A stretch of 59,282 nucleotides of DNA. It comes from a virus. Lineage: Duplodnaviria; Caudoviricetes. The stretch spans positions 1-59,282 of IMG/VR virus record IMGVR_UViG_3300047560_000851. One strand, written 5' to 3'. The notes under the pieces are model-generated. The model saw only the letters and a program-made list of their open reading frames with translations, made no database searches and had not been told where the DNA came from. Both the position numbers and the translations under genes were made by a program. Below, in pieces: positions 59 through 56,737 of this stretch. Numbering within the stretch: the first letter of the stretch is position 1; every line of letters starts with the position of its first letter.

Positions 59-1903
59 TTATGCTGCTAGTGCTTCTTCGATAATATCCTCAGTCGGTTG
101 CGACTTGGTTGTAATGTGTGGCAAGTTTTCTAGCCATGTATTAGCTATTGCACCACGACCACGCTTGACTACATACTTAGGTCTACGCAAGTACGCAGTG
201 AGATAACCATAGTCAACCTCAACATTAGGTCGCGCTGCCAACCACTTGACAAAATCTGTATGCAACCACGATGAACCTGTCGCAGATTTAGTGCTAGTCC
301 ACTCGGCTAACGCCCACATGAACTCAAGGTTTTTCATAAAGCTCTGTGGATGTAATGTCGATTGGAAGATACGGCACTCGGCGATTGAGTGTTTAAGGTT
401 AAGTGGTGAATACTTGCCCATGCCGTTAATCTTTTTCTTGCCAGCTCGACTGTTGTAGTCAAGACCGCCACACTTACGAATAGTCTGGTCATGTTTAGCT
501 AAACTACCCATGTGCATGGATGCCTCACCGCCATAGATTGCATTACGCTGTGCGATTGCCTTAACGAAACCGATATTCTCCTCGGCAGTTAGGAACAATG
601 ACATACGCGCCTCTTGCAGTGGCGATAGATACTCGCGGTTCATACTGATATGGATACCATACGAATTGTCATCGGGGTGGTTATACCCTAACACTTTGCG
701 CTCAAGTAGGTGGTTAAGTAATCGCGGTGCAAACTCTGCCCATTCTGTCTTGCCATACGGCTGGGTAATAATCTCAAACCCGTGGTCATCATCAAGACTA
801 CCATCACGCTCAAGGTACAATTCAGGGAACTTATCACGCAGACTAGACACCACATCATATCGGTCGTGTGAATACACCTCAATCTCAACGCCTAGTGGGA
901 TAAAGCGTTTGTCTGTCCACTGCTCAACAAAGTCACGATACGCACCATGATAATCGTGCAGTCCATCATAGTCCTCATCGGGTTCATCTTCGCTATTCTC
1001 AAACAGCAAGTAATAAGTATCCTCATCAAAGTACGCACCATCCTCGTACATATAACGGCTGTAATCACAATCGTAGGATAACCAATCGTCTGCGCTCTCG
1101 CGGTTGTATGCGTTTCGTGATAAGTACAGTGGTCGCGCATCGTCTGATGGGATATAAGTTTCGTGGTGATTAGACCAATAATAGTTATCGATACAGGAAC
1201 TGCAAATAATGTCCTCGTTAAGTGTGCTATGGGCTTCGTCTGTGTGGTCGATGTATCCACAATCGGGGCAAACAAATCGGTCATAGTCCTGTAAGTTTAA
1301 CTTGTTGAATACACGCGAACGCTTCTCACTACCAATACGCACATTGTTCAGGGCATTCACTACATCGTCTACAATATCTGCGTCAATCTCTTTGCCCTTG
1401 CGGTAATACGCTATGGCTTTTGCTATGAGTTGCCCTTGTTCTAGTCGCGCATATCGGTCGTTGCGTTTTCGTAGTGCAGCATCATAGTGCAAGTTGCGGT
1501 GTTCGATTGCCACCAATTCTTCCGTTGCTCGGAACGCTCTGATTTTGTTACATAACGCAGCTAGATACACACGGTACACACGCTTGGCATGATGTTGATT
1601 TTGGAATAACCGAATTGATGTATCCCACGAACTGCACCAGTATGGTGCTTTCGTCACAGCGACCTCGAACTTCACATCGCCATTGCCTGATACTTCAGTG
1701 ATGCGACCCATGCCATAGTCGCGGTTATAGACCAATTTACCCAGCAGTTTGCGTAGGTATCTAGCCCTCGCGTTGTAGGTTTCGATTGGTTCTAGCATAT
1801 CGCGCAGTCGTTTGGTCGGTTGCCTGTCATTGACAACAATGTCGTCAGTGGTGTAGCCCTGCATTGCTCGTACCGCATCGCGGTAATGATTTGAAAATAA
1901 CAT
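59..1903 (-). CDS. Putative amidoligase (COOH-NH2 ligase-type) with Cys-rich N-terminal region
   Basis: Motifs GVEIEV, ERDGSL..GFEIIT.P, GIHISMN, KYSPLN and ECRIF.ST match phage amidoligases. CPDC/CSSC pairs present. RBS AAGGAGAGAG. Neighbours a class II GATase across the window ends. Confidence 0.8.
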   Translation of the reverse strand: MLFSNHYRDAVRAMQGYTTDDIVVNDRQPTKRLRDMLEPIETYNARARYLRKLLGKLVYNRDYGMGRITEVSGNGDVKFEVAVTKAPYWCSSWDTSIRLFQNQHHAKRVYRVYLAALCNKIRAFRATEELVAIEHRNLHYDAALRKRNDRYARLEQGQLIAKAIAYYRKGKEIDADIVDDVVNALNNVRIGSEKRSRVFNKLNLQDYDRFVCPDCGYIDHTDEAHSTLNEDIICSSCIDNYYWSNHHETYIPSDDARPLYLSRNAYNRESADDWLSYDCDYSRYMYEDGAYFDEDTYYLLFENSEDEPDEDYDGLHDYHGAYRDFVEQWTDKRFIPLGVEIEVYSHDRYDVVSSLRDKFPELYLERDGSLDDDHGFEIITQPYGKTEWAEFAPRLLNHLLERKVLGYNHPDDNSYGIHISMNREYLSPLQEARMSLFLTAEENIGFVKAIAQRNAIYGGEASMHMGSLAKHDQTIRKCGGLDYNSRAGKKKINGMGKYSPLNLKHSIAECRIFQSTLHPQSFMKNLEFMWALAEWTSTKSATGSSWLHTDFVKWLAARPNVEVDYGYLTAYLRRPKYVVKRGRGAIANTWLENLPHITTKSQPTEDIIEEALAA

Positions 1904-1945
1904 AACGCTCTCTCCTTCGTTAAGTTGGTTGGTATTACGGATTGG

Positions 1946-3911: not shown

Positions 3912-4417
3912 TTTAATACCCCTTTTTGTGATTTATGAAAATACACCCTATTTTTAAGATGTATTAAGATAAATGCTGCTGATTAGCCTTGCCGTGTCTG
4001 CAGCCGTCTAACGGAATATAGGTGTCAAGCCTATATCGGGTTTTTTCATGTAAAACGCGCCTTGCCCTTGACACGCATATTGGATTAGCTAGTGCTAACG
4101 GATTTGACAATCCTATACCGATTTTGACACCGATACCCCTGCCCTTTATTATCGCCCCTAGCGTTGGATTGCGCCTGTATTCTACGCACTCGCCTATCTC
4201 AAGCCTTGATACACTAAACCCCTAAGCGTTGCATAATGTACCCCGACTAACCTAGTCATCGGTATGAGCCTTACAGCTAATCTATTCGCTTGCTCTACAC
4301 CTATGGTGGCGTGTCAAGTAGGTAGGGGCGGTGGGACACATGATGTGGCATGGGTGTGCCTGCCTTATGTAACCCATATAATCCACAAGTCACTTTTAGA
4401 CCCTTTACAATTGTATA

Positions 4418-4446
4418 TTGACATAACACCCACGTCGCAGTATTAT
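4418..4446 (+). promoter_or_regulatory. sigma70 promoter
   Basis: TTGACA-17 nt-TATTAT. Confidence 0.7.
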
Positions 4447-4607
4447 TCACATCGGGCCTGGCCCACGAGTTAACCGTAGGTTAGCGAACATCCCCCACAC
4501 GCCTCTTAACCGTAGATGTCAGGGTGTTACCTGAGTAAAGCGCAACCTTGTGGGGGGTACCCCCCTCGTCAATCCAAAAATTTTTCCCGGTCAAAAATCC
4601 GACCCTC

Positions 4608-4637
4608 TTGACAAAAACGAAATTCGTGTGATACAAA
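4608..4637 (+). promoter_or_regulatory. sigma70 promoter for terS (probable leaderless transcript)
   Basis: TTGACA-18 nt-TACAAA with a TG extension; ATG 5 nt downstream. Confidence 0.5.
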
Positions 4638-4642
4638 GCCCC

Positions 4643-5221
4643 ATGGAGACAGCAAACCAATTTGTATCTACAAGCATAGCACCCGTCGAGTTTAGTACCG
4701 ATATGTTGCGAGATCTGCACTTGAGTGCGGACCCTGAGGCCGTTGCTGCCCAGTATGGACTTGTATACGAACACATCAAAGACCTACCCCACTTCAAGAA
4801 AAGAATGGAACAGGTTCAGAATGCCTTAATGGTAGATGGATCGTTTGCGCCAATTATTGCAGGTGCAGGTTTACATACTGCGGTGGAAAAATTAGCAAAG
4901 AGGGTTCAAGATGATAGGATACCGACGGGGGATTTGGTTAAGGCCATCGAAGTATTTAAAAAGGTCAAGGATGGATCGGCGACGGAAGGCGGTCCGAATA
5001 AAGGTAGTGGTGTATCCCTCATCATTAACATCCCTGCGATTGGTAATACAGGCCCTAGAACGGTTGAAATTGTGGCGGAGCCTAGCAAAGAACTTCAGGC
5101 GTACAATACAATTGAAGCGGAAGCGCTTGAGGTTGAGAGCGGTTCATATACGGAATCCGATACTGAGGATGAACCTAAAGAGGTTACATCTGCGCCAGAC
5201 TTTACGATAGGACTCCCATGA
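4643..5221 (+). CDS. terS: Probable terminase small subunit
   Basis: Directly upstream of and overlapping terL; helical core, 'VSLIINI' strand and acidic tail. ATG 4643 preferred over the TTG/GTG start at 4550. Confidence 0.6.
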   Translation: METANQFVSTSIAPVEFSTDMLRDLHLSADPEAVAAQYGLVYEHIKDLPHFKKRMEQVQNALMVDGSFAPIIAGAGLHTAVEKLAKRVQDDRIPTGDLVKAIEVFKKVKDGSATEGGPNKGSGVSLIINIPAIGNTGPRTVEIVAEPSKELQAYNTIEAEALEVESGSYTESDTEDEPKEVTSAPDFTIGLP

Positions 5222-6636
5222 AGCAGTACACCCCGCCGCCGTCAATTGCGCCGTTTCTGGTATCAGATAAATTCGTAAACCTGATTGTAGGGCCAGTGGG
5301 TTCAACTAAAACCACGGCTGCGCTGATTAAAATCGTATACGAAGCGAAACGGATAGCGCCATGCCCAGACGGTATTAGGCGTTCAAGGTGCGTAGTTATC
5401 CGAAACACACGTCAAATGTTAGCCGATACGACAATTCCTGATTTTTTAAAATGGTTTGGGGAATTCGGAATATTTGAAAAATCCGCTATGAAATTCGTCC
5501 TGAAACTGGATGACATAGAGTGCGAAGTACTATTTCGGGGTTTGGATGATTCAAATGACGTTAGACGCTTGCTCTCATTACAGCTCTCGTTTGGCGTGAT
5601 GGATGAGTTCCGGGAAATTAATCCTGACGTTTTCGATGCACTAACAGGTCGTTTGGGTCGTTATCCAGATAAAACCATGAACGGCGTTGGCTGCTGCGAA
5701 GTGATAAAGAAAAAAGACGGCACCGAAGAAACAAAACAAATACATAAAGTATGGGGTGCGACTAACCCGCCTGACTATGACACCCACTGGGAGCAATTTT
5801 TAAATGAGCCACCTGACAACGCTGCAGTATTCATACAACCATCAGGACTTAGCCAAGAAGCCGATTGGGTTCAATATCTCCCCGATGATTACTATGAAAA
5901 CCTTGCCGAAGGTAAATCAGAGGCATGGATCGACGTTTACGTACATGGCAAATTTGGGGCCAGCCTCTCAGGTAAGCCAGTGTTTAGATCGTTTGATCGA
6001 GAATCCCATGTCGCCGAGAACGGACTTGTACCGAACAAAACCTCAACCCAGCCGGTTATTATCGGGTTTGATTGCACGGGACTTAATCCAGCGGCAGTTA
6101 TTGGACAGTTGGGTTTTGAAGGTAAACTCTACGTATTCGATAGTCTCCATGCGGTAGATATGGGCGCGATCAGATTTATTCGTGAAGTCATGAAACCGCT
6201 ACTAGCAAATAAATACGCGGGATGCCGAGTGATGGTAGTGATTGACCCCGCAGGTATGGCAAGGCAAGCGGATGAGCGTAATGTGGCGGACATGCTGAGA
6301 GCCGAAGGATTTGCAGTAAAACCAGCTAGGACGAACGGTATTGCCGCACGTATTGCGGCGGTTGAACAATTTTTAACACGGATGGTAGACGGTAATCCTG
6401 GATTCTTAATAGACCCAGACTGTACTGACTTAATTCAAGCACTAGCCGGTAAATATCGATTTAAGATAAATACTAAAGGTGAAGTGGCGGATACACCAGA
6501 CAAAGCCCACCCATGGGGCGATATTGCGGACGCACTCCAGTATTTATGCTTACACGCAGATGGCGGGACATTATTTGGGCATGAACAGCGAGGAAAGGTC
6601 GAAGTTAAAAGAGCACCGATGAATTGGGCGGTATAA
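5218..6636 (+). CDS. terL: Terminase large subunit
   Basis: Walker A GPVGSTKT, Walker B VMDEFRE, coupling motif GATNPP, nuclease motifs IGFD, IDPAG and DIADALQY. Confidence 0.95.
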   Translation: MKQYTPPPSIAPFLVSDKFVNLIVGPVGSTKTTAALIKIVYEAKRIAPCPDGIRRSRCVVIRNTRQMLADTTIPDFLKWFGEFGIFEKSAMKFVLKLDDIECEVLFRGLDDSNDVRRLLSLQLSFGVMDEFREINPDVFDALTGRLGRYPDKTMNGVGCCEVIKKKDGTEETKQIHKVWGATNPPDYDTHWEQFLNEPPDNAAVFIQPSGLSQEADWVQYLPDDYYENLAEGKSEAWIDVYVHGKFGASLSGKPVFRSFDRESHVAENGLVPNKTSTQPVIIGFDCTGLNPAAVIGQLGFEGKLYVFDSLHAVDMGAIRFIREVMKPLLANKYAGCRVMVVIDPAGMARQADERNVADMLRAEGFAVKPARTNGIAARIAAVEQFLTRMVDGNPGFLIDPDCTDLIQALAGKYRFKINTKGEVADTPDKAHPWGDIADALQYLCLHADGGTLFGHEQRGKVEVKRAPMNWAV

Positions 6637-6637
6637 C

Positions 6638-6667
6638 TTGACAAATACCGACATTTTGGTGAATAAT
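6638..6667 (+). promoter_or_regulatory. sigma70-like promoter for the intergenic sRNA
   Basis: TTGACA-18 nt-AATAAT immediately after the terL stop. Confidence 0.5.
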
Positions 6668-6672
6668 TAACA

Positions 6673-6756
6673 CGCTCCTTACATCTCCTCTCCTAAAGTG
6701 AGCACCCCTCGCCGGAATCCCTCTCTCCATCTCCCTTCGGCGGGGGATCCTTTTTT
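6673..6756 (+). ncRNA. Candidate two-hairpin sRNA with CU-rich anti-SD loops
   Basis: Hairpin 1 GCTCCTT/AAG(T)GAGC with loop ACATCTCCTCTCCTA. Hairpin 2 is 11 bp with loop ATCCCTCTCTCCATCTCCC, followed by ATCC and T6. Own promoter upstream. Confidence 0.6.
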
Positions 6757-6759
6757 CTA

Positions 6760-6788
6760 TTGACAGCCGACCTATTATGTAGTATAAA
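6760..6788 (+). promoter_or_regulatory. sigma70 promoter for the portal operon
   Basis: TTGACA-17 nt-TATAAA. Confidence 0.75.
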
Positions 6789-6813
6789 CGCCTAAGAACA
6801 TGAAAGGTGCTGC

Positions 6814-8982
6814 ATGGAACCAGATATTCAACCCCCAGTGATGACAGGACAAATGACTAATATCAACGGTATCTTACCCGTTGCTAATAACGCGTCCCTA
6901 ATGGCTGCAGAACGTTCACGCGTAGAAGCGGAACAAAAGAACAACCAACCTGTTATCCAAGGCCTGTCGGCATACGTTAGAAAATGCTGGCAAAGTGCAT
7001 ACCTGGCAAAGCTAGATGTAGAACAGAAGATGTTAAAAGGCGTACGCCAACGCCGTGGTGAATATGACCCAGAAGTAGCGGGCGAAATCGAAAAAACTGG
7101 CGGTTCAAGAATTTACATGATGCTCACGTCGAACAAATGCCGTGCAGCTTCTAGTTGGTTACGTGACACACTAATGGGCGCAAGGGATGAAAAACCTTGG
7201 ACAATCGACCCAACTACCCTCCCAGATATTAGTCCAGAAGACATGCAAGAAATTCTTGCGCATGCAACTCAAGAAGCGTTAGCGATCGAACAGGCACTAG
7301 GAAAACCTGTAACAACGCCAGAACAAATGGAAGAGATCGTTGAACGCTCTAAAGACAGAGCAAGGGTAGATATTCAGGATGAAGCTCGTGCGGATTGTAA
7401 CCGCATGGAACTCAAGATGGAAGATCAGTTGGAAGAAGGTAACTTCAAAGACGCGCTTTCTCAATTCCTAGACGATTTGACAACATTCCCAGCAGGCATC
7501 TTAAAAGGTCCTGTAGTACGTAGAAAACCAAGAATGACTTGGATTCAAACAGGTCAAGGTCAATATGCTCCTGAAGTAAAAGAAGATTTTGTACTTGAGT
7601 GGGAACGCGTCGACCCATTTATGTTCTACCCAGCACCTCACGCGACGAAAATTGATGATGGTTATATGATTGAACGTCATCGTATGACTCGCGCGCAGCT
7701 CACAGAGCTGATTGGCGTTGAAGGTTATTCAGATGGCGCTATTCGTGCGGTATTGGAAGACTACGGTCATGGCGGTCTGCATGAGTGGTTGCGTGTAGAT
7801 ACACAAAAAGCACAAGCTGAGGGTAAAAATACCCTTGCAATTCAACAAAACACAGATGCATTGATTGATTCATTGCAGTTCTGGGGCTCAGTTCAAGGTC
7901 GACATCTCGTAGAATGGGGTATGCCTAAGGACCAAGTGCCTGATTTAGATAAAGAATATAATTGCGAAGTGTGGTTAATTGGTCGTTGGGTCATTAAAGC
8001 AACGTTAAATGCTGATCCATTCGGTCGCAAGCCATACTACAAAACATCATACGAAGAGATTCCAGGCGTTTTCTGGGGTAATGGTGTAGCTGACCTCATC
8101 CGTGACGCACAAACGATGTGTAACGCGGCAGCAAGAGCGCTAGCTAACAACATGGGTATTGCATCAGGCCCACAAACCGTAGTAAACGTAGATCGTCTAC
8201 CGCCAGGTGAAGATGTAACAGAACTATATCCTTGGAAAATCCATACTGTGGTCAGCGATCCATATGGCAACACTGCTCCGCCAGTAGATTTCTTCCAGCC
8301 AAGCTCAAATGCCTCAGAATTAATGAGCATTTATGAGAAATTCTCTGTTTTAGCTGACGAATACTCAGGCGTTCCTCGTTATATGACGGGCGATGCCTCA
8401 GCAGGTGGTGCAGGTCGTACTGCAACTGGTATGTCAATGCTTATGAGTAACGCAGGTAAAGCGATTAAACAGGTTATTGCAAACATTGATCAATACGTAT
8501 TTGAGCCTATGCTTGAGCGTTTGTACTATTACAACATGAAGTACAGTGATGACCCAGAACTTAAAGGTGATGTACAAATCCGAGTTCGCGGTGCTAATGC
8601 GTTAGTAGTGAAAGAGCAAGCACAAGTTCGCATGAACGAATTCTTAAACATTGTAACTTCAAACCCAATCTTTGCCCAAATCGTTGGCGATAAGGGTATT
8701 ATCAACATGCTTCGTGAAGTATCTAAGGGACTAGATATGGATACCTCCAAAATTCTTCCATCAGAAGAAGAACTACGAGTTCAGCAAGCAATTCAACAAC
8801 GCCAAGAAATGTTAGCGTTAGCCGCAGGTGCAGCGCAAGCAGGCATGCCTTCGCATGACATTCAAGTAGAGCGTGATTCTACAGGAGCGTTAACCGGTGC
8901 TAAAGTAATGCCAAACGCACCACAGAACCTAGCAACTGGCGCACCAGTAGCAAATACATACCAACCCCAACGCGGAGCTTAA
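6814..8982 (+). CDS. Portal protein (P22-like)
   Basis: 722 aa after terL; motifs [24 protein letters not shown] and [10 protein letters not shown]. Confidence 0.9.
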
Positions 8983-43977: not shown

Positions 43978-44059
43978 CTCTCAACTCCAGAAAAAGTGCT
44001 GGTTACGTTTATCCAGCGTCAGAGGGCGTATGTTGCCATGACCGATTCTCGCGGGGGTT

Positions 44060-45296: not shown

Positions 45297-45305
45297 AACT
45301 TTCTC

Positions 45306-45572: not shown

Positions 45573-45961
45573 TAACTTCTCCTTACGTTTACTGACATCG
45601 TTTCTGACCAGTTAAGACCTGGTGGGATGTCATCATGCGCTGCTTTATACTGCTGAACAGCCGTTTTGTTTGGTTTAATATCCAAGAACTCCCATGCGCC
45701 GTTAGGCACAACCCAGTTATGGAAGAACGCTTCCTTGTCTGCTGTCGTTACGGATAGTTTGGATGTCTTGTACGCAGTACCAAATTCTGTCTTGATACTA
45801 TCAACGCCTGACTCATTGAACTCTTTGAGTAAGTACGCTTCAATCTTTTCTTGCTTTTCCTTATCAGCTGCATCCGCTGCCTCGTATTCATTCTTACGCT
45901 GGGCACGTCGGTCACGTAGCTTGATGTAGGTTGCAACAACTTCTGCTTTATTTAACGCCAT
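45572..45961 (-). CDS. Conserved phage replication-module protein
   Basis: YIKLRD coiled coil, S.KT..GT.Y, PPGLN. Confidence 0.75.
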   Translation of the reverse strand: MALNKAEVVATYIKLRDRRAQRKNEYEAADAADKEKQEKIEAYLLKEFNESGVDSIKTEFGTAYKTSKLSVTTADKEAFFHNWVVPNGAWEFLDIKPNKTAVQQYKAAHDDIPPGLNWSETMSVNVRRS

Positions 45962-45989
45962 GAGTCTCTCCTAAAGTCTCTATGTTGTA

Positions 45990-46470: not shown

Positions 46471-48016
46471 CTCTTATAAGCTCCAGTAATATATTTTGCA
46501 TTTTTTCCTTGGTTTGTAACCTTGTATACATTTTGCGTTCTACTGGGCTACCTTCAATGTTTACGATAAGTTGCGCATGTTTTTGCCCAGGTCGTCGGAC
46601 CCGAGCGCAGGCTTGACCATAAACATCTTGTGAGGTGATTGGTGCATACCATATGATGGTATTTGCTGCAGTTAACGACAACCCATGAGACATCGTAGAT
46701 GGAATAGCTACCAGCACATGCGGGTCTTTAGTCTTCTGAAACGCGCTCAGAATATCATCTCGCTGTTGCTTCGTCACACCACCATGTATGCACTCAACGG
46801 TATATCCGTTCTCGCGCAAATAGTCTGTTACTAACCCAACTGATGACACGAATGGCACAAACACGATGGTCTTAGTACCAGCTTCTTCGATAATCTCCTT
46901 GACCAGTTCTAGTCTGGGCTTTGCATCGAGCGTTACTTCGTCACCTTGTGAGTTGTATGCTACACCGCAGGCAATCTGCACCAGCTTAGAAACCTTAACA
47001 GCTTCGTTAACTGCCAATACTTCGCCACCGTCTACCTCAAGTTTGAGTTTAGTGAGCATCTCTTTGTAGGCTTTTGCTTGATCTGCTGTAAGGTCTACTT
47101 GTCGTGTCATGAATACACACTCAGGCAAATCAGTACAATCCTCAAGCGCAAACCTAATCGCAGGTTGCATTACTTCTTTAACTGTCTCGGTCGCTGTCGC
47201 TTTCGGTATCCATGTAAATGGACCTTGCTGCTTCATGACCTGATCGCGGAAGCGATTAAAGTACGGCGGTACATTCGTTGGTACAATTAGTCGGCACTGC
47301 GCCCATGCATCTGTTGGTGCGTTAGGGGTTGGTGTTCCGGTCAGACCGAATACACTACGCGGACTTTGTTTATTACATATGACGTTATGTGCTTTCCAAA
47401 TATCTGTACTTGCATTACGCGCTGCCTGTGCTACCTCATCAATAACAATAAGGTCAATATCGGGTCTATCCTTCATCGCATCTGCAATAATCTTCATGCC
47501 GTGATGGTTGATAAGGTATACGTCAGCCTTTTGTTCCAACAGCTTTAGCCGCTTATCGCGGCTTCCGTGTAATACTGCATACTCTAAATGTGGGAAATGT
47601 CTGAATACTTCGTCAGCCCACGTACGCTCTAGGGTTGATAACGGCGCCGATATAAGTAATCGTGTTGCCTTACCTTGACTCCGTAAATAATCAAAAGCCC
47701 AAAGCGTTGCTAATGTTTTACCACTACCCATGCCGTTAAGGCAAAAGGCTCGTGGATTTAATGATAAGAACTCCACTGTTGCACGTTGTGCGTCAAATGG
47801 CGTGAACAATCCAGGCCACTGATAGTAATATCCGACAGGTGATGGGACAGAAAAACCCATGTTACGAAGCACACGGGTTTCATCTAATCTGTGGGGGACT
47901 GCCACCATCGTGTCCCCTCTAAACTGAAATGTCTTAGCTGTTGGTATTACTGTTGTTATTCTGTTAGGGTTTCTTACTTTTAGTACTACGCTCTTCTTGC
48001 TCCTAACAATGAGCAT
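46460..48016 (-). CDS. SNF2-family (SF2) helicase
   Basis: GMGSGKT, VIDEV, LTGTP.PN, HGLSLT, QACARVRRPGQ. Confidence 0.92.
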   Translation of the reverse strand: MLIVRSKKSVVLKVRNPNRITTVIPTAKTFQFRGDTMVAVPHRLDETRVLRNMGFSVPSPVGYYYQWPGLFTPFDAQRATVEFLSLNPRAFCLNGMGSGKTLATLWAFDYLRSQGKATRLLISAPLSTLERTWADEVFRHFPHLEYAVLHGSRDKRLKLLEQKADVYLINHHGMKIIADAMKDRPDIDLIVIDEVAQAARNASTDIWKAHNVICNKQSPRSVFGLTGTPTPNAPTDAWAQCRLIVPTNVPPYFNRFRDQVMKQQGPFTWIPKATATETVKEVMQPAIRFALEDCTDLPECVFMTRQVDLTADQAKAYKEMLTKLKLEVDGGEVLAVNEAVKVSKLVQIACGVAYNSQGDEVTLDAKPRLELVKEIIEEAGTKTIVFVPFVSSVGLVTDYLRENGYTVECIHGGVTKQQRDDILSAFQKTKDPHVLVAIPSTMSHGLSLTAANTIIWYAPITSQDVYGQACARVRRPGQKHAQLIVNIEGSPVERKMYTRLQTKEKMQNILLELIRDAT

Positions 48017-48025
48017 CTTGCTCTC

Positions 48026-48292
48026 CTATGTGTAAGACTTTTTACCGAACTTACCTTTTCTCCATCCACGATTTTCTTCACGGCTGATTACTCGTGTATT
48101 ACTATCTGCACCGCTACCGCCTTGGCGCAATGGTTTCTTGTGGTCTACGTCTTTACCATCACCAACTTTAACTTTGCCATCAGCAATTGCATGACGACGC
48201 GCACGGTTACGGTCAACACGTTTCTCAACGTTTTCGGGTTTCTTTTGGTACTCAGCCATGTAGGCTAATTTCTTTGGGGTTGTCTTTGGCAT
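48026..48292 (-). CDS. Small HNH nuclease
   Basis: DVDHKKPL..GG....N.RV.....NR. Confidence 0.75.
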   Translation of the reverse strand: MPKTTPKKLAYMAEYQKKPENVEKRVDRNRARRHAIADGKVKVGDGKDVDHKKPLRQGGSGADSNTRVISREENRGWRKGKFGKKSYT

Positions 48293-48591: not shown

Positions 48592-48833
48592 TCTGCTGCC
48601 GTCTTCGCAGCTTCTGCTTCTAGTTGTTTAGCGCGTTCGTCAATCTTTCGGAACTCGTTCTCTAGAAATAACCTAGCCATTATACCAAAAGTTTGGGCTG
48701 GCGTCATCTCACCAAACGGCAACTGGGTTGCATCAGGATCATCTGGAAGCGGAAACGGTGGGTCTGAATCAAAGTTAATCTTCAGTTCCTCGTTCTCGTA
48801 ATCGTCTTCCAATACTAATGTTACTTTAGCCAT
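48588..48833 (-). CDS. Hypothetical protein
   Basis: RBS AGGAGAGAG; 81 aa. Confidence 0.65.
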   Translation of the reverse strand: MAKVTLVLEDDYENEELKINFDSDPPFPLPDDPDATQLPFGEMTPAQTFGIMARLFLENEFRKIDERAKQLEAEAAKTAAE

Positions 48834-48842
48834 GTCTCTCTC

Positions 48843-49052
48843 CTATGGGGCTAATGAAATAATGCGTTCATTCAGGATGTCGTAGTACGCTGTCATCGCC
48901 ATATACTGGTCGCCAAGTAAGTTCCTGTCGTGTACTGGCAGTGCATCATACTCTTCCGTCTTTTGGAATGCACCTAAACGCCTAATCTTTCCTTCTAGCT
49001 GGGTGCGCTCTTCATAAAGTCTATCAACCCATGTTGCTGTCTTTGCAACCAT
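48843..49052 (-). CDS. Small helical phage protein (crAss001_48-like)
   Basis: RL.EE..QL..KI.RL..F...LL..QY.AM..Y..IL..RI. Confidence 0.7.
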   Translation of the reverse strand: MVAKTATWVDRLYEERTQLEGKIRRLGAFQKTEEYDALPVHDRNLLGDQYMAMTAYYDILNERIISLAP

Positions 49053-49061
49053 ATCTCTCTC

Positions 49062-49727
49062 CTATTTACCACAAAACTCACAACTTCTTACAGGGCAGTA
49101 ATTCTTGCATAGTCCGCTAGGTTTAGCAGGCCAGCTGTCCTTTTCATACGCCTGTTCCATTCGCAGTACTCGTGGCATAACTTCTTGCCATATCTGCGCC
49201 TCATGCTCCCCACGGATAAAGACTTCCTTATCTGTCTTATGCTCTTTGAGCCAAACAAACGCGGTTGTTACCTTCTCAACCCACGGGAATTTCTTCATAG
49301 CAAACGCTGCAAACAACTTCATCTGGTCATTGTCTGCCTTACGCTTACCTGTTTTCCAATCTAATAACACCGCATTCTTGTCGTTCACAATACCAATGTC
49401 GACGATACCTCGGCACCATACATCCTTACCAAACCACGTCGTCGGGGTTAAATCCCTAGTGAGCGCGATCTGTTCCTCTACTAACCGCTTACCATCCTTG
49501 GACACAATCTGCTGAATGACAGGCTCACAATAGTTCAAGTAATCAGGTAAGGGTTTGTTATTCTTTGCACGTTCTTCTAAGTGCTTATGGACTGTTTGCC
49601 CCCATAGTGCAGCTTCACCTGGAGGGTCTGGAGTATCCTTCGCTACTTTAATATGGTAATACTTTCTAGGGCAAGTCTCGAACGCTGTTAGCGATGAATG
49701 GCTCCACGCCATCTTTTTAGACGACAT
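49062..49727 (-). CDS. PD-(D/E)XK (Cas4/RecB-like) exonuclease
   Basis: WSHS....FETCPRKY, RGIVD, LDWKTGK, Q..L.A, C..CPV..C. Confidence 0.88.
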   Translation of the reverse strand: MSSKKMAWSHSSLTAFETCPRKYYHIKVAKDTPDPPGEAALWGQTVHKHLEERAKNNKPLPDYLNYCEPVIQQIVSKDGKRLVEEQIALTRDLTPTTWFGKDVWCRGIVDIGIVNDKNAVLLDWKTGKRKADNDQMKLFAAFAMKKFPWVEKVTTAFVWLKEHKTDKEVFIRGEHEAQIWQEVMPRVLRMEQAYEKDSWPAKPSGLCKNYCPVRSCEFCGK

Positions 49728-49900: not shown

Positions 49901-51850
49901 CTACTTGGCTGCGCCATATGTCTGCGCAATATCCCCAGCACTCCATGTTACTAACTCAGGCCACCATGTAGGTGGTGTTCGCATATGCGACTGAACCGTA
50001 TCTAGCAAGGCTTGTGCCTCTGAGTCAGGTGCAATGTAAATCAATTCGTCGTGGACTGTATGCACTGGGGCATACCCAGTAGCTTTTTTAATAGCCAGCA
50101 TATTATCCGCGATGACCTCACGCGCTAGGTGTTGCACGATATTCTCATCAATCTTTCCTGCGTAGATGCGTGATTTGTTACGACCATGACCATATACCCA
50201 TTCTGATTTACCAGTTTCAGGATTACCTTCTTCTCGTAAGTCAGGGTATCTAATCATACCTTGAGGTGTCTTGATGCCTTCGGCTGTGGTATAGCATAAA
50301 CCCCAAGGGTCGATGTCTACTCGTGTGCCTTCTTGTATCGCGTTAAGCGCAGCGTGGCATGTTCTCCAGCCTGTTACAATCTCTGAATACGCATCGCGCC
50401 ACATACGCACGACTTCTTCTGACTCCATCTCGGATAGTTCTACCTTACCCATTAATTTCGCAACGGTCTGGAATGTCTTAGCACCCGCACCGAAACCTAA
50501 TCCTAAGTGGGCAACTTTACCAACCTGTCGCTGGTCTTTAGATACTTGATCTGTATCTACATTGTATAGCTTAGAGGCGAAGTCGATGTACAAGTCAGCT
50601 TTTTCAGGGTCAGCTTGGAATAACGCCATCGACGACGGCACCTTCCATAAGAAGTGATTGACCCGAAGCTCAATACCACTCAAGTCAGCGACGACTACCT
50701 TATGCCCTTTAGGTGCGCGAAGTGAGTTACGCAGTGCATCCGTTGGCTTTTGCTCTTTACCTACACGCGGTAAGTTCTGCTGATTAAGACTACCACCGCC
50801 ACCCCATCTGCCTGTTGTATCTGCACCATAGTATGTCAAGAATATCGGTAGCTTATCGTTAACTGTACAGGATAAAAAGCGTTCAATGCGAGACTCCAAT
50901 AAGGTACTCTTCACGCCTAATCGTGCTTGCGCAGCTGCTGCTACCATCGGGTCTGCATGATTTTGCAAATCAATAAACGCTTGGTCTGTCTTAGCTAACG
51001 CAGGTGTTTCTTTCTCAGGGTTTGTCGGACTAGGCTTCATCGGTACAGGTACATCAAACGCCCGTAGTATTTCCGAGAACTTACTGGCTGACGCCAACAT
51101 CTTACGCGCAGCTTCTGCTGCTTCCTCGTCGGTCATGCCAGGCTTATACGCCCCAATCATTGTCGCCACATCAAGCAGCATCAAGGTCTTACGTTCTTGC
51201 TCTTCAATCAGTGTGTACTTGAGTAAGTCTTTATCTAGCTCAAACTTAGGCTCAGTCAACATACGCACAGTCAAGTCAATGAGCTTTAATTCGCGCTGCG
51301 GTGTCTTCTGAATAAGGATTTTAAACAGCTGATAGCAAATCTCCACGTCGAGCTTGTTGTACTCGCGCATGAGTTCTATCTCTTCGCTGGTGAACTGGGC
51401 TAGGTGCTTGCCCTTGGTGTTTGTCTTTTCTAATGAGCCTTTGGCTGGCAGTCCATACTCTGCTGCAAGTTTGGCAAGTGATACACCATCACGGGTAATC
51501 GGTTTACCGTACTCATCAATCCATGATGCAGTTGTTTTGGTGTTTAGTGGGCGAGCCATTGCTGCGGTACATGCCCATAGCTTCGGGTTAATACCATAAT
51601 TGTAAGCTAAGATAAGCGCATCGAACCCTGCCATGTTATGCCCTACGGCAATCGACTGACTCCAATCAATCGCATGTAGGGCTGACGCAACATCCAGCCC
51701 AAAATAGACCTGCGTAGGTTCGTTGTTAATCTTAATCGCTACGCTGATAATCTCTGTGTCGGGATGCATTACATATTCGATGGGGCTCATGTTAGTGAGC
51801 GAATGACCCGTGTCATAGAATGACTCGAAATCAAGGGTTACTACTTGCAT
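49901..51850 (-). CDS. polA: DNA polymerase, family A, with 3'-5' exonuclease
   Basis: ExoI LDFE, ExoII HN..FD, TGRW, motif A DLSGIELR, motif B R..GK...LG..FG, motif C VHDE. Confidence 0.95.
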   Translation of the reverse strand: MQVVTLDFESFYDTGHSLTNMSPIEYVMHPDTEIISVAIKINNEPTQVYFGLDVASALHAIDWSQSIAVGHNMAGFDALILAYNYGINPKLWACTAAMARPLNTKTTASWIDEYGKPITRDGVSLAKLAAEYGLPAKGSLEKTNTKGKHLAQFTSEEIELMREYNKLDVEICYQLFKILIQKTPQRELKLIDLTVRMLTEPKFELDKDLLKYTLIEEQERKTLMLLDVATMIGAYKPGMTDEEAAEAARKMLASASKFSEILRAFDVPVPMKPSPTNPEKETPALAKTDQAFIDLQNHADPMVAAAAQARLGVKSTLLESRIERFLSCTVNDKLPIFLTYYGADTTGRWGGGGSLNQQNLPRVGKEQKPTDALRNSLRAPKGHKVVVADLSGIELRVNHFLWKVPSSMALFQADPEKADLYIDFASKLYNVDTDQVSKDQRQVGKVAHLGLGFGAGAKTFQTVAKLMGKVELSEMESEEVVRMWRDAYSEIVTGWRTCHAALNAIQEGTRVDIDPWGLCYTTAEGIKTPQGMIRYPDLREEGNPETGKSEWVYGHGRNKSRIYAGKIDENIVQHLAREVIADNMLAIKKATGYAPVHTVHDELIYIAPDSEAQALLDTVQSHMRTPPTWWPELVTWSAGDIAQTYGAAK

Positions 51851-51987
51851 CTTTCTCTCCTAAAACGTGTGGCAGTCGTACCATTTATTGAAGTCTTCTT
51901 GAACTAACTCTTCCCATGTATCTGGGATTGGGTTCAGCCACGACAGTACTTTATAGAAGATTACACCAAATATAGTACTTCCGACCA

Positions 51988-52798: not shown

Positions 52799-52799
52799 A

Positions 52800-53566: not shown

Positions 53567-53974
53567 TTAACTCTCTTCATCTTCGCTTGATTCATCCTGC
53601 TCTCCTAATGCAAATAGCTTCGCCTTATTCTTGTTTGATAACCTAGGGTTTGCTGATACTAACAGACCTCTCCAGTTGTGGAAGATGCGTAGTCGGATAC
53701 GCTCAGGGTCTAAGTTAAATAACTCACATACCCAAATGAATGACGCGGGTGCTGTACTCTCGCTAGTAATCCATCGGTAGGCAATTCGTGCGTTGCTGCA
53801 TAATTCTCCAGCGTTCGCGTTACCTACGCGCTTACCGCCCATAAGTTTAACGCCTTGTGCATACTCTTTCGCATGCAGTAATAGCTTCGCACCCCATAAT
53901 CTACGCAGTGCTGACATATTTGTTTCGATGTCGATGCGCGGTGTTCGCGCTTGTAGTTGTCCGTATACATCCAT
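53567..53974 (-). CDS. Hypothetical protein
   Basis: LW..........A..W......SF.WVCELF.LDP...R; conserved phage pattern. Confidence 0.7.
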   Translation of the reverse strand: MDVYGQLQARTPRIDIETNMSALRRLWGAKLLLHAKEYAQGVKLMGGKRVGNANAGELCSNARIAYRWITSESTAPASFIWVCELFNLDPERIRLRIFHNWRGLLVSANPRLSNKNKAKLFALGEQDESSEDEES

Positions 53975-55171: not shown

Positions 55172-55436
55172 CCTCGACTGTATCGTGTAACGTTACAGGA
55201 TACGTTAATTCGTACGATACGATTTTAAATTCAAACGGATTAGTGTCCGCCATCATACCTTTAAGTCCAGCTTCTGCGCCAATTACATAATAAAAGATGC
55301 GGTCATCAGGCACACCGAAGCTATCGGTCTCTCGTTCCTCATCATACTCACCAAAAGAAAAGTACGCTGTCTCGCGTACCGCTGGGTCTGTTCCTACCCA
55401 TTCAAAGGTGACTAATGCACCAATCGGATTATCCAT
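55110..55436 (-). CDS. Hypothetical acidic protein
   Basis: TAATG coupling at 55436; RBS GGGAGATGG. Confidence 0.6.
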   Translation of the reverse strand: MDNPIGALVTFEWVGTDPAVRETAYFSFGEYDEERETDSFGVPDDRIFYYVIGAEAGLKGMMADTNPFEFKIVSYELTYPVTLHDTVEGEWNEERVDIIGQNGNVGYE

Positions 55437-55624
55437 TACCATCTCCCAATTAAACCAAGGAATAAGAATGCAGCTAGACCCCAGCCGAGCCACATCATTA
55501 CCTTATGAAATCTACTCTCTTTTTCTACCGCATCCTCATACCCAAATGCTTCTCGTGATGTGCGTGGAAAGTAATAGTCGTATCTGTTATATCCGTAGTA
55601 ACGCTCTCTCATTTCATCTCCCAT
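55436..55624 (-). CDS. Small membrane protein
   Basis: FPRT.REAFG followed by a C-terminal TM helix. Confidence 0.65.
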   Translation of the reverse strand: MGDEMRERYYGYNRYDYYFPRTSREAFGYEDAVEKESRFHKVMMWLGWGLAAFLFLGLIGRW

Positions 55625-56186: not shown

Positions 56187-56353
56187 TCAAAGAATACCCG
56201 CATCATCCATCTAGCAAACCAATTAGGCTCGCGCCCCTTGTCAGGAGTCCAGATGATACCTGTTAGTCCAGGTCGATTGCCGAATAGATAGCAACTCCAC
56301 TCGGATTTCTCAGGCACATATAGAAACGAATACTGTGGTTTTTGTTCTTCCAT
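56159..56353 (-). CDS. Hypothetical protein
   Basis: S.W.CY.FG...PNWF.RWM; RBS GGGAGAGAG. Confidence 0.65.
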   Translation of the reverse strand: MEEQKPQYSFLYVPEKSEWSCYLFGNRPGLTGIIWTPDKGREPNWFARWMMRVFFDCLWVKEKK

Positions 56354-56362
56354 TCTCTCTCC

Positions 56363-56593
56363 CTAGCCGATAGCCCTAACTCTAGGCTGCATAATCTTGC
56401 GACACCGTTCTTTAACAACAATAGGATAGTCAGGACTAATCTCAGCCAAGCGACAATCGTATACCATTTCTATCTTTGGTATTGGTGCTTTGTTTAAGTC
56501 TACATAAACTTCGTGCGCAAGTGCTGTCAAAACTGCTGCGCTTCCTAGAACTGCAATAATTCCTATTAAAAAATCCGCTTGTGGTTTGGTCAT
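56363..56593 (-). CDS. Membrane-anchored protein (YDCRLAEISPDYP)
   Basis: N-terminal TM; RBS AGGAGAGAG. Confidence 0.65.
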   Translation of the reverse strand: MTKPQADFLIGIIAVLGSAAVLTALAHEVYVDLNKAPIPKIEMVYDCRLAEISPDYPIVVKERCRKIMQPRVRAIG

Positions 56594-56737
56594 TCTCTCT
56601 CCTAGAATAGTGGGTTATCCCAATCAGGGTGGTCAAGTGGAAGCTGAGGGGGATCGGGCGGGTATTTTACTGCCCCTGTTGCATGGAAGTCAAACAATCT
56701 AACAACATTCCCCTCATCATCCAGTAGTGCATACCGC

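What the first reader, a model, noticed from the sequence alone, without database searches (positions are those of the whole stretch)
6673..6756. Candidate anti-Shine-Dalgarno sRNA that could switch off the phage's own early/replication genes
Seen: between terL and portal lies a unit with its own promoter, two hairpins, a U-tract and then a fresh promoter for portal. Loop 1 (ACAUCUCCUCUCCUA) is complementary to UAGGAGAG. That sequence precedes the DNA polymerase (51850), the helicase (48016) and the genes starting at 45961, 48833, 49052 and 56593. Loop 2 (AUCCCUCUCUCCAUCUCCC) is complementary to GGAGAGAG (amidoligase, 55797, 56353) and to GGGAGAUG (two genes at ~55.4-55.6 kb). G.U pairs and the U-tract favour the + strand. 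Known: alphaproteobacterial cuckoo sRNAs show CCUCCUCCC anti-SD loops on tandem hairpins. Inference: a late sRNA silences one RBS class in trans, giving an RNA-based early-to-late switch, or it shuts off host translation. This is my best candidate for an undescribed system.
Basis: partly seen in the sequence, partly recalled or inferred. Interest (0 to 1): 0.82.

Follow-up and report, generated by a model that had tools for sequence, protein, structure and literature searches.

The report
Phage small RNA mirroring early ribosome-binding sites
Between the terminase and portal genes of an uncultured 59-kb freshwater phage lies a probable gene for an 85-base non-coding RNA whose two open pyrimidine loops mirror the ribosome-binding sites of the phage's own replication genes, so it may turn their translation down, though no transcript or binding has been seen.

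Summary
The gap 6637-6813 holds a promoter, two hairpins, a U-tract and a second promoter. Only the + strand folds better than shuffles (z -3.48 against -0.06).

- **Relatives:** of 75 with both genes, one (L002) has the unit. There both promoters keep their hexamers while the spacers diverge. All 11 terminator pairs survive, 7 by double changes. The big loop stays all-pyrimidine.
- **Pairing:** the loops pair better with - strand (replication) start regions than with + strand ones. By cofolding, 17 of 43 against 2 of 42 reach -8 kcal/mol. A 16S-tail control shows no such bias.
- **GGAGAG signature:** it is private to this phage.
- **Against:** many internal purine-rich sites score as well as the start regions. 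The sister phage keeps the RNA without the GGAGAG signature. Late timing cannot be read from the promoters. The host is unknown. No discrete RNA has been seen.
- **Family:** no Rfam match. The cuckoo motif is absent from both window loops.

Reading: a new phage-borne variant of the CU-loop, ribosome-binding-site-masking small RNAs. I put about 0.4 on self-repression of early genes. This scan has noted similar unverified candidates in other phages.

The parts
6638..6667 (+). Promoter P1 of the small RNA: TTGACA, 18 nt, AATAAT. The -35 hexamer abuts the terL stop codon.
   Evidence: 11 of 12. In L002 both hexamers are kept (TTGACA / TATAAT) while the spacer is 5 of 18 identical (my count). Relatives have TTGACA overlapping the terL stop at the same place.
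6672..6757 (+). Predicted small non-coding RNA, about 83-87 nt. The start is inferred 5-7 nt after the -10 hexamer and the end in the U-tract.
   Evidence: Fold -24.8 kcal/mol, z -3.48. The covariance model R1 finds only this unit and the L002 unit (40.2 bits, E 3.8e-7) in 439,266 bases. It has no ATG and no Shine-Dalgarno-led frame. No Rfam family matches.
6674..6703 (+). Hairpin 1: 7 bp with one bulge, and a 15-nt loop at 6681-6695 (ACAUCUCCUCUCCUA).
   Evidence: The loop pairs with UAGGAGAG (8 bp) and, after a small internal loop, with (A/G)GAUG including the start codon of the helicase, DNA polymerase and 53595 genes. In L002 the 5' part of the loop is deleted but UCUCCUAAAGUGAGCAC is identical.
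6706..6746 (+). Hairpin 2 / terminator: 11-bp stem and a 19-nt loop at 6717-6735 (AUCCCUCUCUCCAUCUCCC).
   Evidence: Against L002, 11 of 11 pairs are kept: 7 changed on both sides, 1 on one side, 3 unchanged. Only 7 of 22 stem letters are identical. The loop is 12 of 17 identical and 17 of 17 pyrimidine in L002 (my count).
6751..6756 (+). U-tract (U6) of the intrinsic terminator.
   Evidence: The scan lists the alternative short hairpin 6729-6748 followed by CCTTTTTTCT.
6760..6788 (+). Promoter P2 for the portal gene: TTGACA, 17 nt, TATAAA.
   Evidence: In L002 the hexamers and TAGTATAAACGCCTAAGAA are kept, while the spacer is 7 of 17 identical (my count).
48014..48030 (-). Start region of the helicase gene (46460-48016): AUAGGAGAGCAAGAUG. 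This is the top-ranked predicted target.
   Evidence: phrog_62 DNA helicase, E 3.1e-94. Loop-1 duplex -17.2 kcal/mol. Cofold net -16.2, rank 1 of 85.
51848..51864 (-). Start region of the DNA polymerase gene (49901-51850): UUUAGGAGAGAAAGAUG.
   Evidence: phrog_17 DNA polymerase, E 2.1e-64. It has a 10-nt perfect complement to 6688-6697. Duplex -17.1, cofold net -15.2, rank 2 of 85.
53593..53609 (-). Start region of the 58-aa gene 53419-53595: UUAGGAGAGCAGGAUG.
   Evidence: (net -14.9, rank 3).
48831..48846 (-). Start region of gene 48588-48833: AUAGGAGAGAGACAUG. The TAG is the stop codon of the gene upstream.
   Evidence: -16.2 / -15.7.
49050..49065 (-). Start region of gene 48843-49052: AUAGGAGAGAGAUAUG.
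   Evidence: -16.2 / -15.7.
56351..56366 (-). Start region of gene 56159-56353: CUAGGGAGAGAGAAUG.
   Evidence: loop 2, -18.4.
56591..56605 (-). Start region of gene 56363-56593: CUAGGAGAGAGAAUG.
45959..45977 (-). Start region of gene 45572-45961. It holds a 12-nt perfect complement (ACUUUAGGAGAG) to 6688-6699.
   Evidence: the longest exact match of the unit elsewhere in the window (E 0.48).
1901..1917 (-). Start region of the 614-aa gene 59-1903: GAAGGAGAGAGCGUUAUG.
   Evidence: loop 2, -16.0.
55600..55623 (-). Best single predicted site in the genome. It is the stop/start junction GGGAGAUGAAAUGAGAGAG in front of a 58-aa gene (55436-55612) with a hydrophobic C-terminus.
   Evidence: Loop-2 duplex -24.7 kcal/mol, with 8 + 7 bp around a 4-nt bulge, best of 14,762 windows. 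Cofold net -13.6. Translation.
55434..55447 (-). Second GGGAGAUG junction (stop TAA / start ATG overlap), at the end of the 58-aa gene.
   Evidence: -19.8; net -11.1.

Best explanation
The gap between terL and portal holds a real, separately transcribed gene for a non-coding RNA of about 85 nt. The RNA has a weak hairpin and a terminator hairpin. Each shows an unpaired CU-rich loop.

The RNA most likely acts in trans by base pairing. Its loops cover the Shine-Dalgarno sequence, and in this phage also the AUG, of messages whose start regions read (U)AGGAGAG..AUG or GGGAGAUG. That would keep 30S subunits off and lower translation. In this phage those start regions belong only to - strand genes: helicase, DNA polymerase, and many small early genes, including a 58-aa membrane-type protein.

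The promoter is a strong host-type one, placed where relatives have their portal promoter. The RNA should therefore rise with genome copy number. It would then act as a replication-coupled brake on the replication/early module.

Shown: the anatomy, strand preference, conservation pattern, complementarity and its strand bias. Inferred: transcription, timing, pairing in vivo and the effect on translation.
For: (1) **Gene-like anatomy on the + strand only**.

(2) **Conservation pattern against the one homologous unit, L002** (TerL 83% identical).
- Promoter hexamers are kept while spacers are 5 of 18 and 7 of 17 identical.
- The terminator stem is 7 of 22 letters identical, yet 11 of 11 pairs are kept, 7 of them by changes on both sides.
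- Loop 2 is 12 of 17 identical and wholly pyrimidine.

(3) **Near-identical variants.** In three other runs the unit has no difference in 6541-6887 while the flanks differ. A 12%-diverged contig in a fourth run keeps the unit with one 1-nt deletion.

(4) **Loop-only duplex energies.** - strand start regions average -10.8 kcal/mol against -7.9 for + strand ones (n 43 and 42, p 0.0016). A 16S-tail control gives -6.93 against -6.83 (p 0.59).

(5) **Loop shuffles.** 300 shuffles of the loops give a smaller bias. 11 - strand regions reach -14 or better, against a shuffle mean of 2.9. The fraction of shuffles reaching the observed values is 0.003-0.007.

(6) **Cofolding the whole RNA.** 17 of 43 - strand against 2 of 42 + strand regions reach a net -8 or better. 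Helicase and DNA polymerase rank first and second.

(7) **Loop 1 pairs with SD and AUG together**.

(8) **The GGAGAG signature is private to this phage.** It occurs in 11 of 43 - strand and 0 of 42 + strand start regions. Eight relatives' genomes that lack the unit hold 0-5 AGGAGAG on mixed strands, and the ninth record, the L002 contig that carries the unit, holds 2, one of them the unit itself; a start-region tally of three of them and of the L002 contig shows no such heptamer.

(9) **Loop and SD type differ together between the two phages.** The window has CUCUCC twice and CCUCC never, with GGAGAG in 11 of 43 and GGAGG in 1 of 43. The L002 phage has CCUCC twice, with GGAGG in 6 of 24 and GGAGAG in 0 of 24. 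The window's loops fit the window's early regions better than L002's loops do (mean -1.53 kcal/mol, Wilcoxon p 0.00012).

(10) **The kind is known in bacteria.** CU-rich loops that mask ribosome-binding sites are described in PMC4615179 and PMC5688073 (passages read).
Against: - **No transcript seen.** The only true RNA-library contig runs straight through terL, the unit and portal (6371-7002), and contigs cannot show ends.
- **Pairing is not exclusive.** Of the 30 best non-overlapping sites genome-wide, 9 are start regions and 21 are internal purine-rich stretches with similar energies.
- **The sister phage.** A contig from the same sample as L002 (L200, DNA polymerase 73% identical) has 13 early genes and no AGGAGAG. 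The assignment of L200 to the L002 phage is inferred. There the early/late bias of the L002 loops (p 0.00019) is matched by the 16S-tail control (p 0.00033). The window's loops fit those regions as well as L002's own do (p 0.59). The conserved function could therefore be generic or host-directed.
- **The anti-AUG part of the loops (CAU) is absent in L002**.
- **Only two sequenced lineages**, so the covariation is one event.
- **Promoters on both strands are of the same host type**, so 'late' is not derivable.
- **Terminator spacing.** 4 nt separate the stem from the U-tract in the window.
- **Gene starts come from my own ORF heuristic**. It includes some doubtful ORFs (for example 4022-4225 and 4345-4473), and at least one start was mis-set (55818 instead of 55797).
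Confidence: 0.4

Rival explanations
1. The RNA is real and works by anti-Shine-Dalgarno pairing, but its selected targets are host messages: either general damping of strongly SD-led host translation or a few specific host genes. The fit to the phage's own early genes is then a side effect, or something the phage merely tolerates.
For: The RNA is kept in the sister phage, whose early genes lack the GGAGAG signature. L002's loop 2 carries the generic CCUCC twice, and its bias equals that of the 16S-tail control. Bacterial CU-loop sRNAs of this build act on many cellular messages, and overexpressing one attenuates growth (PMC5688073, passages read).
Against: The window's loops hold no CCUCC at all, but hold CUCUCC and CAU. 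These fit a signature that the 16S tail does not favour. The host is unknown, so no host target can be named. The model found nothing in 101 genomes of the family of one weak host candidate, though that host hint rests only on one binned 5-kb contig.
Confidence: 0.2
2. The RNA is a specific regulator of one locus, not a global one. It represses the 58-aa membrane-type protein gene (55436-55612) and the gene after it, much as a trans-acting antitoxin-like or holin-timing RNA would. The many GGAGAG matches are weaker by-products.
For: The junction at 55600-55623 is the best site among 14,762 windows: -24.7 kcal/mol, with 15 of the 19 loop-2 letters paired. The second GGGAGAUG junction, at the end of the same gene, ranks second (-19.8). 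The product has a hydrophobic C-terminal segment.
Against: GGGAGATG is not more frequent than chance. After accounting for folding, the net energy (-13.6) is lower than for the helicase and DNA polymerase regions. L002's loop 2 lacks the CAU needed for this pairing. The homologous region of the sister phage is not available.
Confidence: 0.1
3. There is no trans function. The element is a terminator that ends the terS-terL transcript, followed by a new promoter for portal. The upstream promoter and the loops have no role, or the short transcript is a by-product.
For: In 73 of 75 relatives the gap is only 1-61 nt, and a TTGACA overlapping the terL stop drives portal directly. The unit is therefore dispensable for this phage group. 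A covarying stem is expected of any terminator.
Against: A terminator needs neither a 17-19-nt loop nor a loop that stays pyrimidine-only and 12 of 17 identical while the stem letters are 7 of 22 identical. P1 hexamers are kept over a randomised spacer. In 1.9 Mb of related phage DNA, 17 hairpins passed my strict filter: 7 are copies of this unit, and the other 10 have pyrimidine tracts of 9-13 nt.
Confidence: 0.15
4. It is a cis-acting leader. Transcripts from P1 stop at hairpin 2 unless a phage or host protein bound to the CU-rich loops lets RNA polymerase read on into portal (attenuation/antitermination). Alternatively, the loops titrate a pyrimidine-binding protein such as ribosomal protein S1.
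For: P1 is at the ancestral portal-promoter position. Loop sequence is conserved without a proven RNA partner. In T4, S1 cooperates with RegB on early GGAG sites (PMC3014915, passages read).
Against: A conserved second promoter directly after the terminator makes read-through unnecessary. No candidate binding protein was identified. The complementarity and its strand bias would then be coincidence.
Confidence: 0.08
5. The functional strand is the - strand: a GGA/GA-rich RNA acting as a CsrA/RsmA-type sponge, or a small peptide gene (the 41-aa ORF 6605-6730).
For: The - strand reads as SD-plus-AUG-like strings, and a 41-aa ORF exists.
Against: The - strand fold is no better than shuffles (z -0.06). 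No - strand promoter of 10 or more of 12 lies nearby. The G.U pairs become A-C mismatches. The U-tract and both promoters are + strand. Indels of 10 and 2 nt against L002 in the structure-guided alignment break the ORF, and L002's loop-2 complement has no ATG.
Confidence: 0.02

Closest known systems
Betaproteobacterial 'double-hairpin' sRNAs (Rfam RF02278, 'toxic small RNA'; ncS03/05/27/62 of Burkholderia cenocepacia; PMC5688073, passages read)
   Same: They are 57-92 nt and consist almost entirely of two hairpins. [quoted passage not shown] Both CU regions can join in one duplex with a start region. Overexpression attenuates growth.
   Different: They are chromosomal, with three to five copies per genome, and their predicted targets are cellular metabolic genes. 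The phage unit gives no match to RF02278 even at E up to 10. It is single-copy, phage-borne, and fits the phage's own start regions.
Cuckoo RNA family (RSs0680/CcsR1-4, SmelC397/NfeR1; PMC4615179, abstract and passages read)
   Same: They have two to four adjacent hairpins with variable stems and conserved anti-SD-like pyrimidine loops. The hairpin and loop sizes allowed by the family model (24-50 nt and 9-27 nt) fit this unit (30 and 41 nt; 15 and 19 nt).
   Different: Every cuckoo loop carries CCUCCUCCC. Neither loop of the window does, and only L002's loop 2 does. Cuckoo RNAs are alphaproteobacterial chromosomal genes. No Rfam model matched.
c4 antisense RNA of phages P1/P7 (as summarised in PMC12197685, passages read)
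   Same: It is a phage-encoded RNA whose loop sequences pair around the ribosome-binding site of a phage message and block its translation.
   Different: c4 controls one operon (the antirepressor) for immunity in temperate phages. Here there is a promoter-to-terminator unit in a phage with no lysogeny genes seen, and its complementarity is to a whole class of start regions. No Rfam match.
T4 RegB endoribonuclease and RegA repressor (PMC3014915, passages read)
   Same: The logic is the same: an extended Shine-Dalgarno 'address' (GG*AGRAYARAA) marks many early messages for inactivation, while most middle and all late ones escape.
   Different: Those are proteins, not an RNA. They are an analogue of function only. 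A RegB-like protein reading the GGAGAG address would also be a rival reader of the signature. I did not look for one.

Membership tests
Cuckoo RNA family (PMC4615179) | 2 to 4 adjacent hairpins without multiloops | tested here: met
   Two adjacent hairpins in both the MFE and the centroid fold. The same holds in L002.
Cuckoo RNA family (PMC4615179) | Each hairpin loop carries CCUCCUCCC | tested here: not met
   0 of 2 window loops hold it; they hold no CCUCC at all. L002's loop 2 does hold CCUCCUCCC, but its loop 1 does not.
Cuckoo RNA family (PMC4615179) | Hairpins of 24-50 nt and loops of 9-27 nt | tested here: met
   Hairpins of 30 and 41 nt, loops of 15 and 19 nt.
Cuckoo RNA family (PMC4615179) | Encoded in alphaproteobacterial (Rhizobiales/Rhodobacterales) replicons in conserved neighbourhoods | tested here: not met
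   It is encoded in a 59,282-bp virus record between terL and portal. The host is unknown.
Rfam families of CU-loop sRNAs (RF02278 toxic small RNA; the cuckoo-type alpha-r models, named from memory; C4 antisense RNA) | Match to the family covariance model | tested here: not met
   0 matches in the window at gathering scores. At E up to 10 over L001 + L002 there were 2 matches, both elsewhere in L002 (Atu_C8 and ctRNA_p42d at 3132-3206), and none in the unit.
Double-hairpin sRNAs of Burkholderia (PMC5688073) | Short RNA made almost entirely of two hairpins, with CU-rich unpaired stretches complementary to ribosome-binding sites | tested here: met
Double-hairpin sRNAs of Burkholderia (PMC5688073) | Several homologous copies spread over a Burkholderia genome, with sequence homology to ncS03/05/27/62 | tested here: not met
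   Single copy in the window. Model R1 finds no second copy. There is no RF02278 match.
Trans-acting base-pairing sRNA (general) | A discrete transcript with defined 5' and 3' ends | not testable with these tools
   All four runs laid were Logan contigs, which cannot show ends or strand.
Trans-acting base-pairing sRNA (general) | Seed-target covariation across lineages | tested here: inconclusive
   Across the two lineages the loop hexamer and the early SD hexamer differ together. However, the sister's bias equals that of the 16S control, and cross-fits are not worse on the sister's genes.

The most novel reading that the evidence does not exclude
A lytic-type phage times its own programme with an 'anti-start-site' RNA. 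The 85-nt RNA is made from a strong host-type promoter and so rises with genome copy number. It masks the SD and AUG of a private, co-evolving ribosome-binding 'address' carried only by replication/early genes. That would make it an RNA counterpart of T4 RegB/RegA and a replication-coupled negative feedback loop. Together with the similar unverified candidates that this scan has noted in unrelated phages, it would point to a widespread, undescribed class of phage riboregulators.
Probability: 0.3. Interest if true: 0.8.

Novelty: new variant of a known kind. Interest (0 to 1): 0.6.

Why it matters
Base-pairing small RNAs with C/U-rich loops that mask ribosome-binding sites are well known in bacteria. 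The phage small RNAs in print are mostly prophage or temperate-phage RNAs that act on single host or immunity genes. This is what I saw in the review PMC12197685 (outline and passages) and in the listings. None of those describes a phage RNA aimed at a class of the phage's own start regions.

If this RNA does what its sequence suggests, it adds a third way, beside transcription cascades and proteins such as RegA/RegB, by which a phage can switch off its early genes. It would also explain why one strand of this genome speaks its own ribosome-binding dialect. The idea is directly testable with simple reporter fusions. It would also give a compact, portable translational off-switch with a matching address.

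Tried and rejected
- **Rfam membership.** Nothing at gathering scores in the whole window, and nothing in the unit at E up to 10.
- **DNA homologues in 50,697 phage records.** None. TerL is at most about 40% identical to cultured phages.
- **Exact-word searches of viral contigs.** Loop 2 gave 0. The conserved 17-mer found only the L002 contig. The portal leader 17-mer found L002 plus one unrelated chance hit, L280.
- **Metagenome scan with the conserved 16-mer.** 102 stretches and 104 matches. None resembles the unit beyond the word itself. Many belong to one unrelated repeated soil element.
- **Closer TerL relatives.** The protein search found some (P0001 90%, P0002 86%, P0003 84%, P0005 83%, P0006 and P0007 77%). 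The best material for a covariation test therefore stayed out of reach.
- **Origin by inverted duplication of an early junction.** The longest exact match is 12 nt (E 0.48), so there is no support.
- **Small peptide on either strand.** Rejected: there is no ATG on the + strand, and the - strand ORF is not kept in L002.
- **Host homologue.** 0 of 101 genomes of the family of a MAG that holds a 64% TerL relative. This is uninformative, because the host is not established.
- **Search for analogous CU-loop terminators in 178 sources (1,895,323 bases).** The loose filter gave 198 mostly weak folds. The strict filter gave 17, of which 7 are this unit. The other 10 have short loops, for example L233 20402 and L261 17368, which looked like plain terminators.
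- **Sequencing runs.** 16 rows were listed and 4 were laid. Parts without cover and the depth figures are not used as evidence. The 71 unlisted differences hide where the diverged X15 contig differs inside the unit, so no pair counts could be made from it.
- **Supplementary files of papers.** Not consulted. The cuckoo paper's Table S1 and the review's Table S1 (38 phage sRNAs without a described function) might hold relevant cases.
Full report
**What is there.** The window is a complete 59,282-bp virus record. terL (5218-6636) and portal (6814-8982) lie on the + strand, separated by 177 nt. The gap reads, in order:
- TTGACA 6638-6643, 18 nt, AATAAT 6662-6667;
- a 7-bp bulged hairpin, 6674-6703, with the 15-nt loop ACAUCUCCUCUCCUA;
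- an 11-bp hairpin, 6706-6746, with the 19-nt loop AUCCCUCUCUCCAUCUCCC;
- U6 at 6751-6756;
- TTGACA 6760-6765, 17 nt, TATAAA 6783-6788, and then the portal start.

The + strand RNA folds to -24.8 kcal/mol (z -3.48; 0 of 200 shuffles as good). The - strand gives z -0.06. The stretch has no ATG on the + strand. The 41-aa - strand ORF is not kept in the homologue. Rfam gives nothing, at gathering scores in the window or at E up to 10 around the unit.

**Is it more than chance?** The generic scan does not find more promoter-like sites than in shuffles (35 against 39.9). The argument is therefore comparative.

TerL relatives were collected from viral contigs: 80 loci, 62-83% identical. In 75 of them both terL and portal lie in the locus. 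In 73 of those the gap is 1-61 nt, one (L005) has a 2.1-kb insertion, and one (L002, TerL 83%) has a 164-nt gap with the same unit.

In the short gaps of relatives a TTGACA overlaps the terL stop codon. It is followed after 17 nt by TAYACC, which looks like the ancestral portal promoter. In the window and in L002 that position drives the small unit, and a second promoter serves portal.

Between the window and L002 (my counts):
- the four promoter hexamers are kept, while the spacers are 5 of 18 and 7 of 17 identical;
- the terminator stem has only 7 of 22 identical letters, yet all 11 pairs are kept (7 changed on both sides, 1 on one side, 3 unchanged);
- loop 2 is 12 of 17 identical and consists only of C and U in L002;
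- the stretch UCUCCUAAAGUGAGCAC of hairpin 1 is identical.

A single-sequence covariance model finds only these two units in 439,266 bases, which include three complete relatives' genomes.

Contigs of four public runs were laid on 6200-7200:
- three near-identical variants have no difference in 6541-6887, although they differ in the flanking coding parts (one has 33 differences in 1,001 nt);
- a 631-nt contig from a metatranscriptome library differs at 77 places in 6371-7002, yet carries the unit with a single 1-nt deletion at 6670. The places of its differences were cut from the output.

I take the unit to be a real functional element and, with less certainty, a separately transcribed RNA. 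No tool here could show transcript ends.

**The complementarity.** A simple ORF-based gene list gives 85 genes, 43 on the - strand and 42 on the + strand. Some small + strand ORFs near 4.0-4.5 kb are doubtful. The list shows a striking ribosome-binding signature on the - strand: (A/U)UAGGAGAG(A/C)..AUG. The UAG often serves as the stop codon of the gene before, across a 9-nt junction.
- AGGAGAG occurs 10 times, always on the - strand (expected 4.19).
- GGAGAGAG occurs 7 times, always on the - strand (expected 0.94).
- The genes concerned include the helicase and the DNA polymerase. A PD-(D/E)XK nuclease and a DUF927 protein lie in the same module.

Loop-only duplex energies with the region -25..+10 average -10.8 kcal/mol for - strand genes and -7.9 for + strand genes (p 0.0016). 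In 300 shuffles of the loop letters the bias and the number of strong - strand sites (11 at -14 or better) are reached in 0.3-0.7% of shuffles.

Cofolding the whole RNA with -35..+20 charges for opening both partners. By that measure 17 of 43 - strand and 2 of 42 + strand regions have a net gain of 8 kcal/mol or more. Helicase (-16.2) and DNA polymerase (-15.2) rank first and second.

Loop 1 pairs with UAGGAGAG and, across a small internal loop, with (A/G)GAUG. It therefore covers both the SD and the start codon.

The best site in the whole genome is the junction GGGAGAUGAAAUGAGAGAG at 55600-55623, in front of a 58-aa protein with a hydrophobic tail. There 15 of the 19 letters of loop 2 pair (-24.7 kcal/mol).

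**What speaks against a simple reading.** Genome-wide, 21 of the 30 best non-overlapping sites are internal purine-rich stretches rather than start regions. The 9 start regions are about four times my rough expectation.

The GGAGAG signature is private to this phage. Eight relatives' genomes that lack the unit hold 0-5 AGGAGAG on mixed strands; the L002 contig, which carries the unit, holds 2, one of them the unit itself. A heptamer tally of start regions in three of them and in the L002 contig shows nothing comparable. That fits co-occurrence of signature and RNA.

However, the only other phage with the RNA does not have the signature. A 6.7-kb contig from the same sample as L002 (L200, DNA polymerase 73% identical, assigned to the same phage by inference) carries 13 early genes with ordinary GGAGG/GGAGA sites and no AGGAGAG.

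Loop and SD type do differ together:
- window loops: CUCUCC twice, CCUCC never; early regions: GGAGAG 11 of 43, GGAGG 1 of 43;
- L002 loops: CCUCC twice; early-type regions: GGAGG 6 of 24, GGAGAG 0 of 24.

The window's loops fit the window's early regions better than L002's loops do (-1.53 kcal/mol, p 0.00012). But in the L002 phage the early/late bias is matched by the 16S-tail control, and the window's loops fit as well as its own. This is one evolutionary event, suggestive and no more.

**Timing.** Promoters of the same host type (TTGACA, 17-18 nt, TAnnAT) stand on both strands, and no phage RNA polymerase was noticed. 'Late' expression is thus not shown. It can only be argued from the position of P1 at the ancestral portal promoter and from gene dosage after replication. 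Both arguments are inference.

**Mechanism proposed.** An RNA of about 85 nt is made from P1 and ended at hairpin 2. It uses its two open CU-rich loops to pair with SD (and AUG) regions and exclude 30S subunits. In this phage the best-fitting class is that of the replication/early genes, so the likely effect is self-limitation of that module as genome copies, and with them the RNA, accumulate.

Rivals, with my odds, are:
- host-directed anti-SD action (0.2);
- a specific regulator of the 55612 junction (0.1);
- a mere terminator-plus-promoter insert (0.15);
- a cis leader or protein-binding element (0.08);
- a - strand function (0.02).

**Comparison with what is known.** In build and presumed action it matches bacterial CU-loop sRNAs. 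These are the double-hairpin/'toxic' sRNAs of Burkholderia (RF02278; PMC5688073, passages read) and the cuckoo family (PMC4615179, abstract and passages read). It is not a member of either: no covariance model matches, and the cuckoo loop motif is absent from both window loops.

Among phage RNAs, c4 of P1/P7 also blocks a phage ribosome-binding site, but of one operon (PMC12197685, passages read). The closest functional analogue for class-wide early shut-off through an extended SD address is the protein RegB of T4 (PMC3014915, passages read).

My literature searches were made, read as listings, abstracts and passages only; supplements were closed. They turned up no description of a phage sRNA aimed at a class of the phage's own start regions.

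This scan's own notebook lists similar, unverified candidates in other phages (e1-5779598, e1-5838908, e1-6009148 and others).

**Verdict.** It is a new, phage-borne variant of a known kind of riboregulator. The evidence is all computational, and the decisive data (transcript ends, reporter tests, more lineages) are missing.

Noticed in passing
window 3940-4640: A 700-nt stretch sits between the divergent - strand and + strand gene blocks. It has several tandem host-type promoters (TTGACA-17-TATTAT at 4124 and 4418; TTGACA at 4608 just before the gene at 4643) and a GGGGGGUACCCCCC hairpin near 4554-4567. The two ORFs my heuristic placed here (4022-4225, 4345-4473) are doubtful. It may encode further non-coding RNAs or be the control region.
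   Followed up: no
window 44000-57000, - strand: Many - strand genes are joined by 9-nt junctions of the form TAG-GAGAG...-ATG, in which the stop codon of one gene is the first part of the next gene's ribosome-binding site. This suggests translational coupling as an independent reason for part of the signature.
   Followed up: partly
window 55436-55612, - strand: An unannotated 58-aa gene with a Tyr/Arg-rich N-terminal half and a hydrophobic C-terminal segment (WLGWGLAAFLFLGLIGRW). Both its ends are GGGAGAUG stop/start overlaps. My ORF heuristic had missed it and had mis-set two neighbouring starts (55797 and 55436 are the better ones).
   Followed up: partly
window 52975-53135, - strand: In the MFE fold of this GC-rich gap, UACCUCC pairs with the GGAGAG ribosome-binding site of the gene starting at 52973. 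That would be a possible cis anti-SD, but the fold is no better than shuffles (z 0.34).
   Followed up: partly
L005 5407-7505: One relative (TerL 66%) has a 2.1-kb insertion with its own TTGACA-N17-TAGTATAAA promoter between terL and portal. This is the same spot where the window has the small RNA unit, so the junction seems to be a hotspot for insertions.
   Followed up: no
L006-L081, first 50 nt after terL: In most relatives the terL stop codon overlaps a TTGACA that is followed after 17 nt by TACACC/TATACC and a C-run. This is a conserved but non-consensus -10 region, possibly a phage-specific promoter class.
   Followed up: no
L126, L135, L138, L143, L149, L150, L157, L161-L163, L169, L171, L175, L180 (metagenome loci): The chance 16-mer hits include a family of near-identical ~200-nt stretches from many soil metagenome contigs, twice in inverted orientation on one contig (L149). 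This is an unrelated repeated element.
   Followed up: no
L233 20380-20430 (-) and L261 17350-17390 (-): Two distant relatives (DNA polymerase 56-57%) have strong terminators whose loops are C/U-rich (UUCUCCUCUAGUU and a CCCUCCC-type loop). I saw no promoter of their own in front of them.
   Followed up: partly
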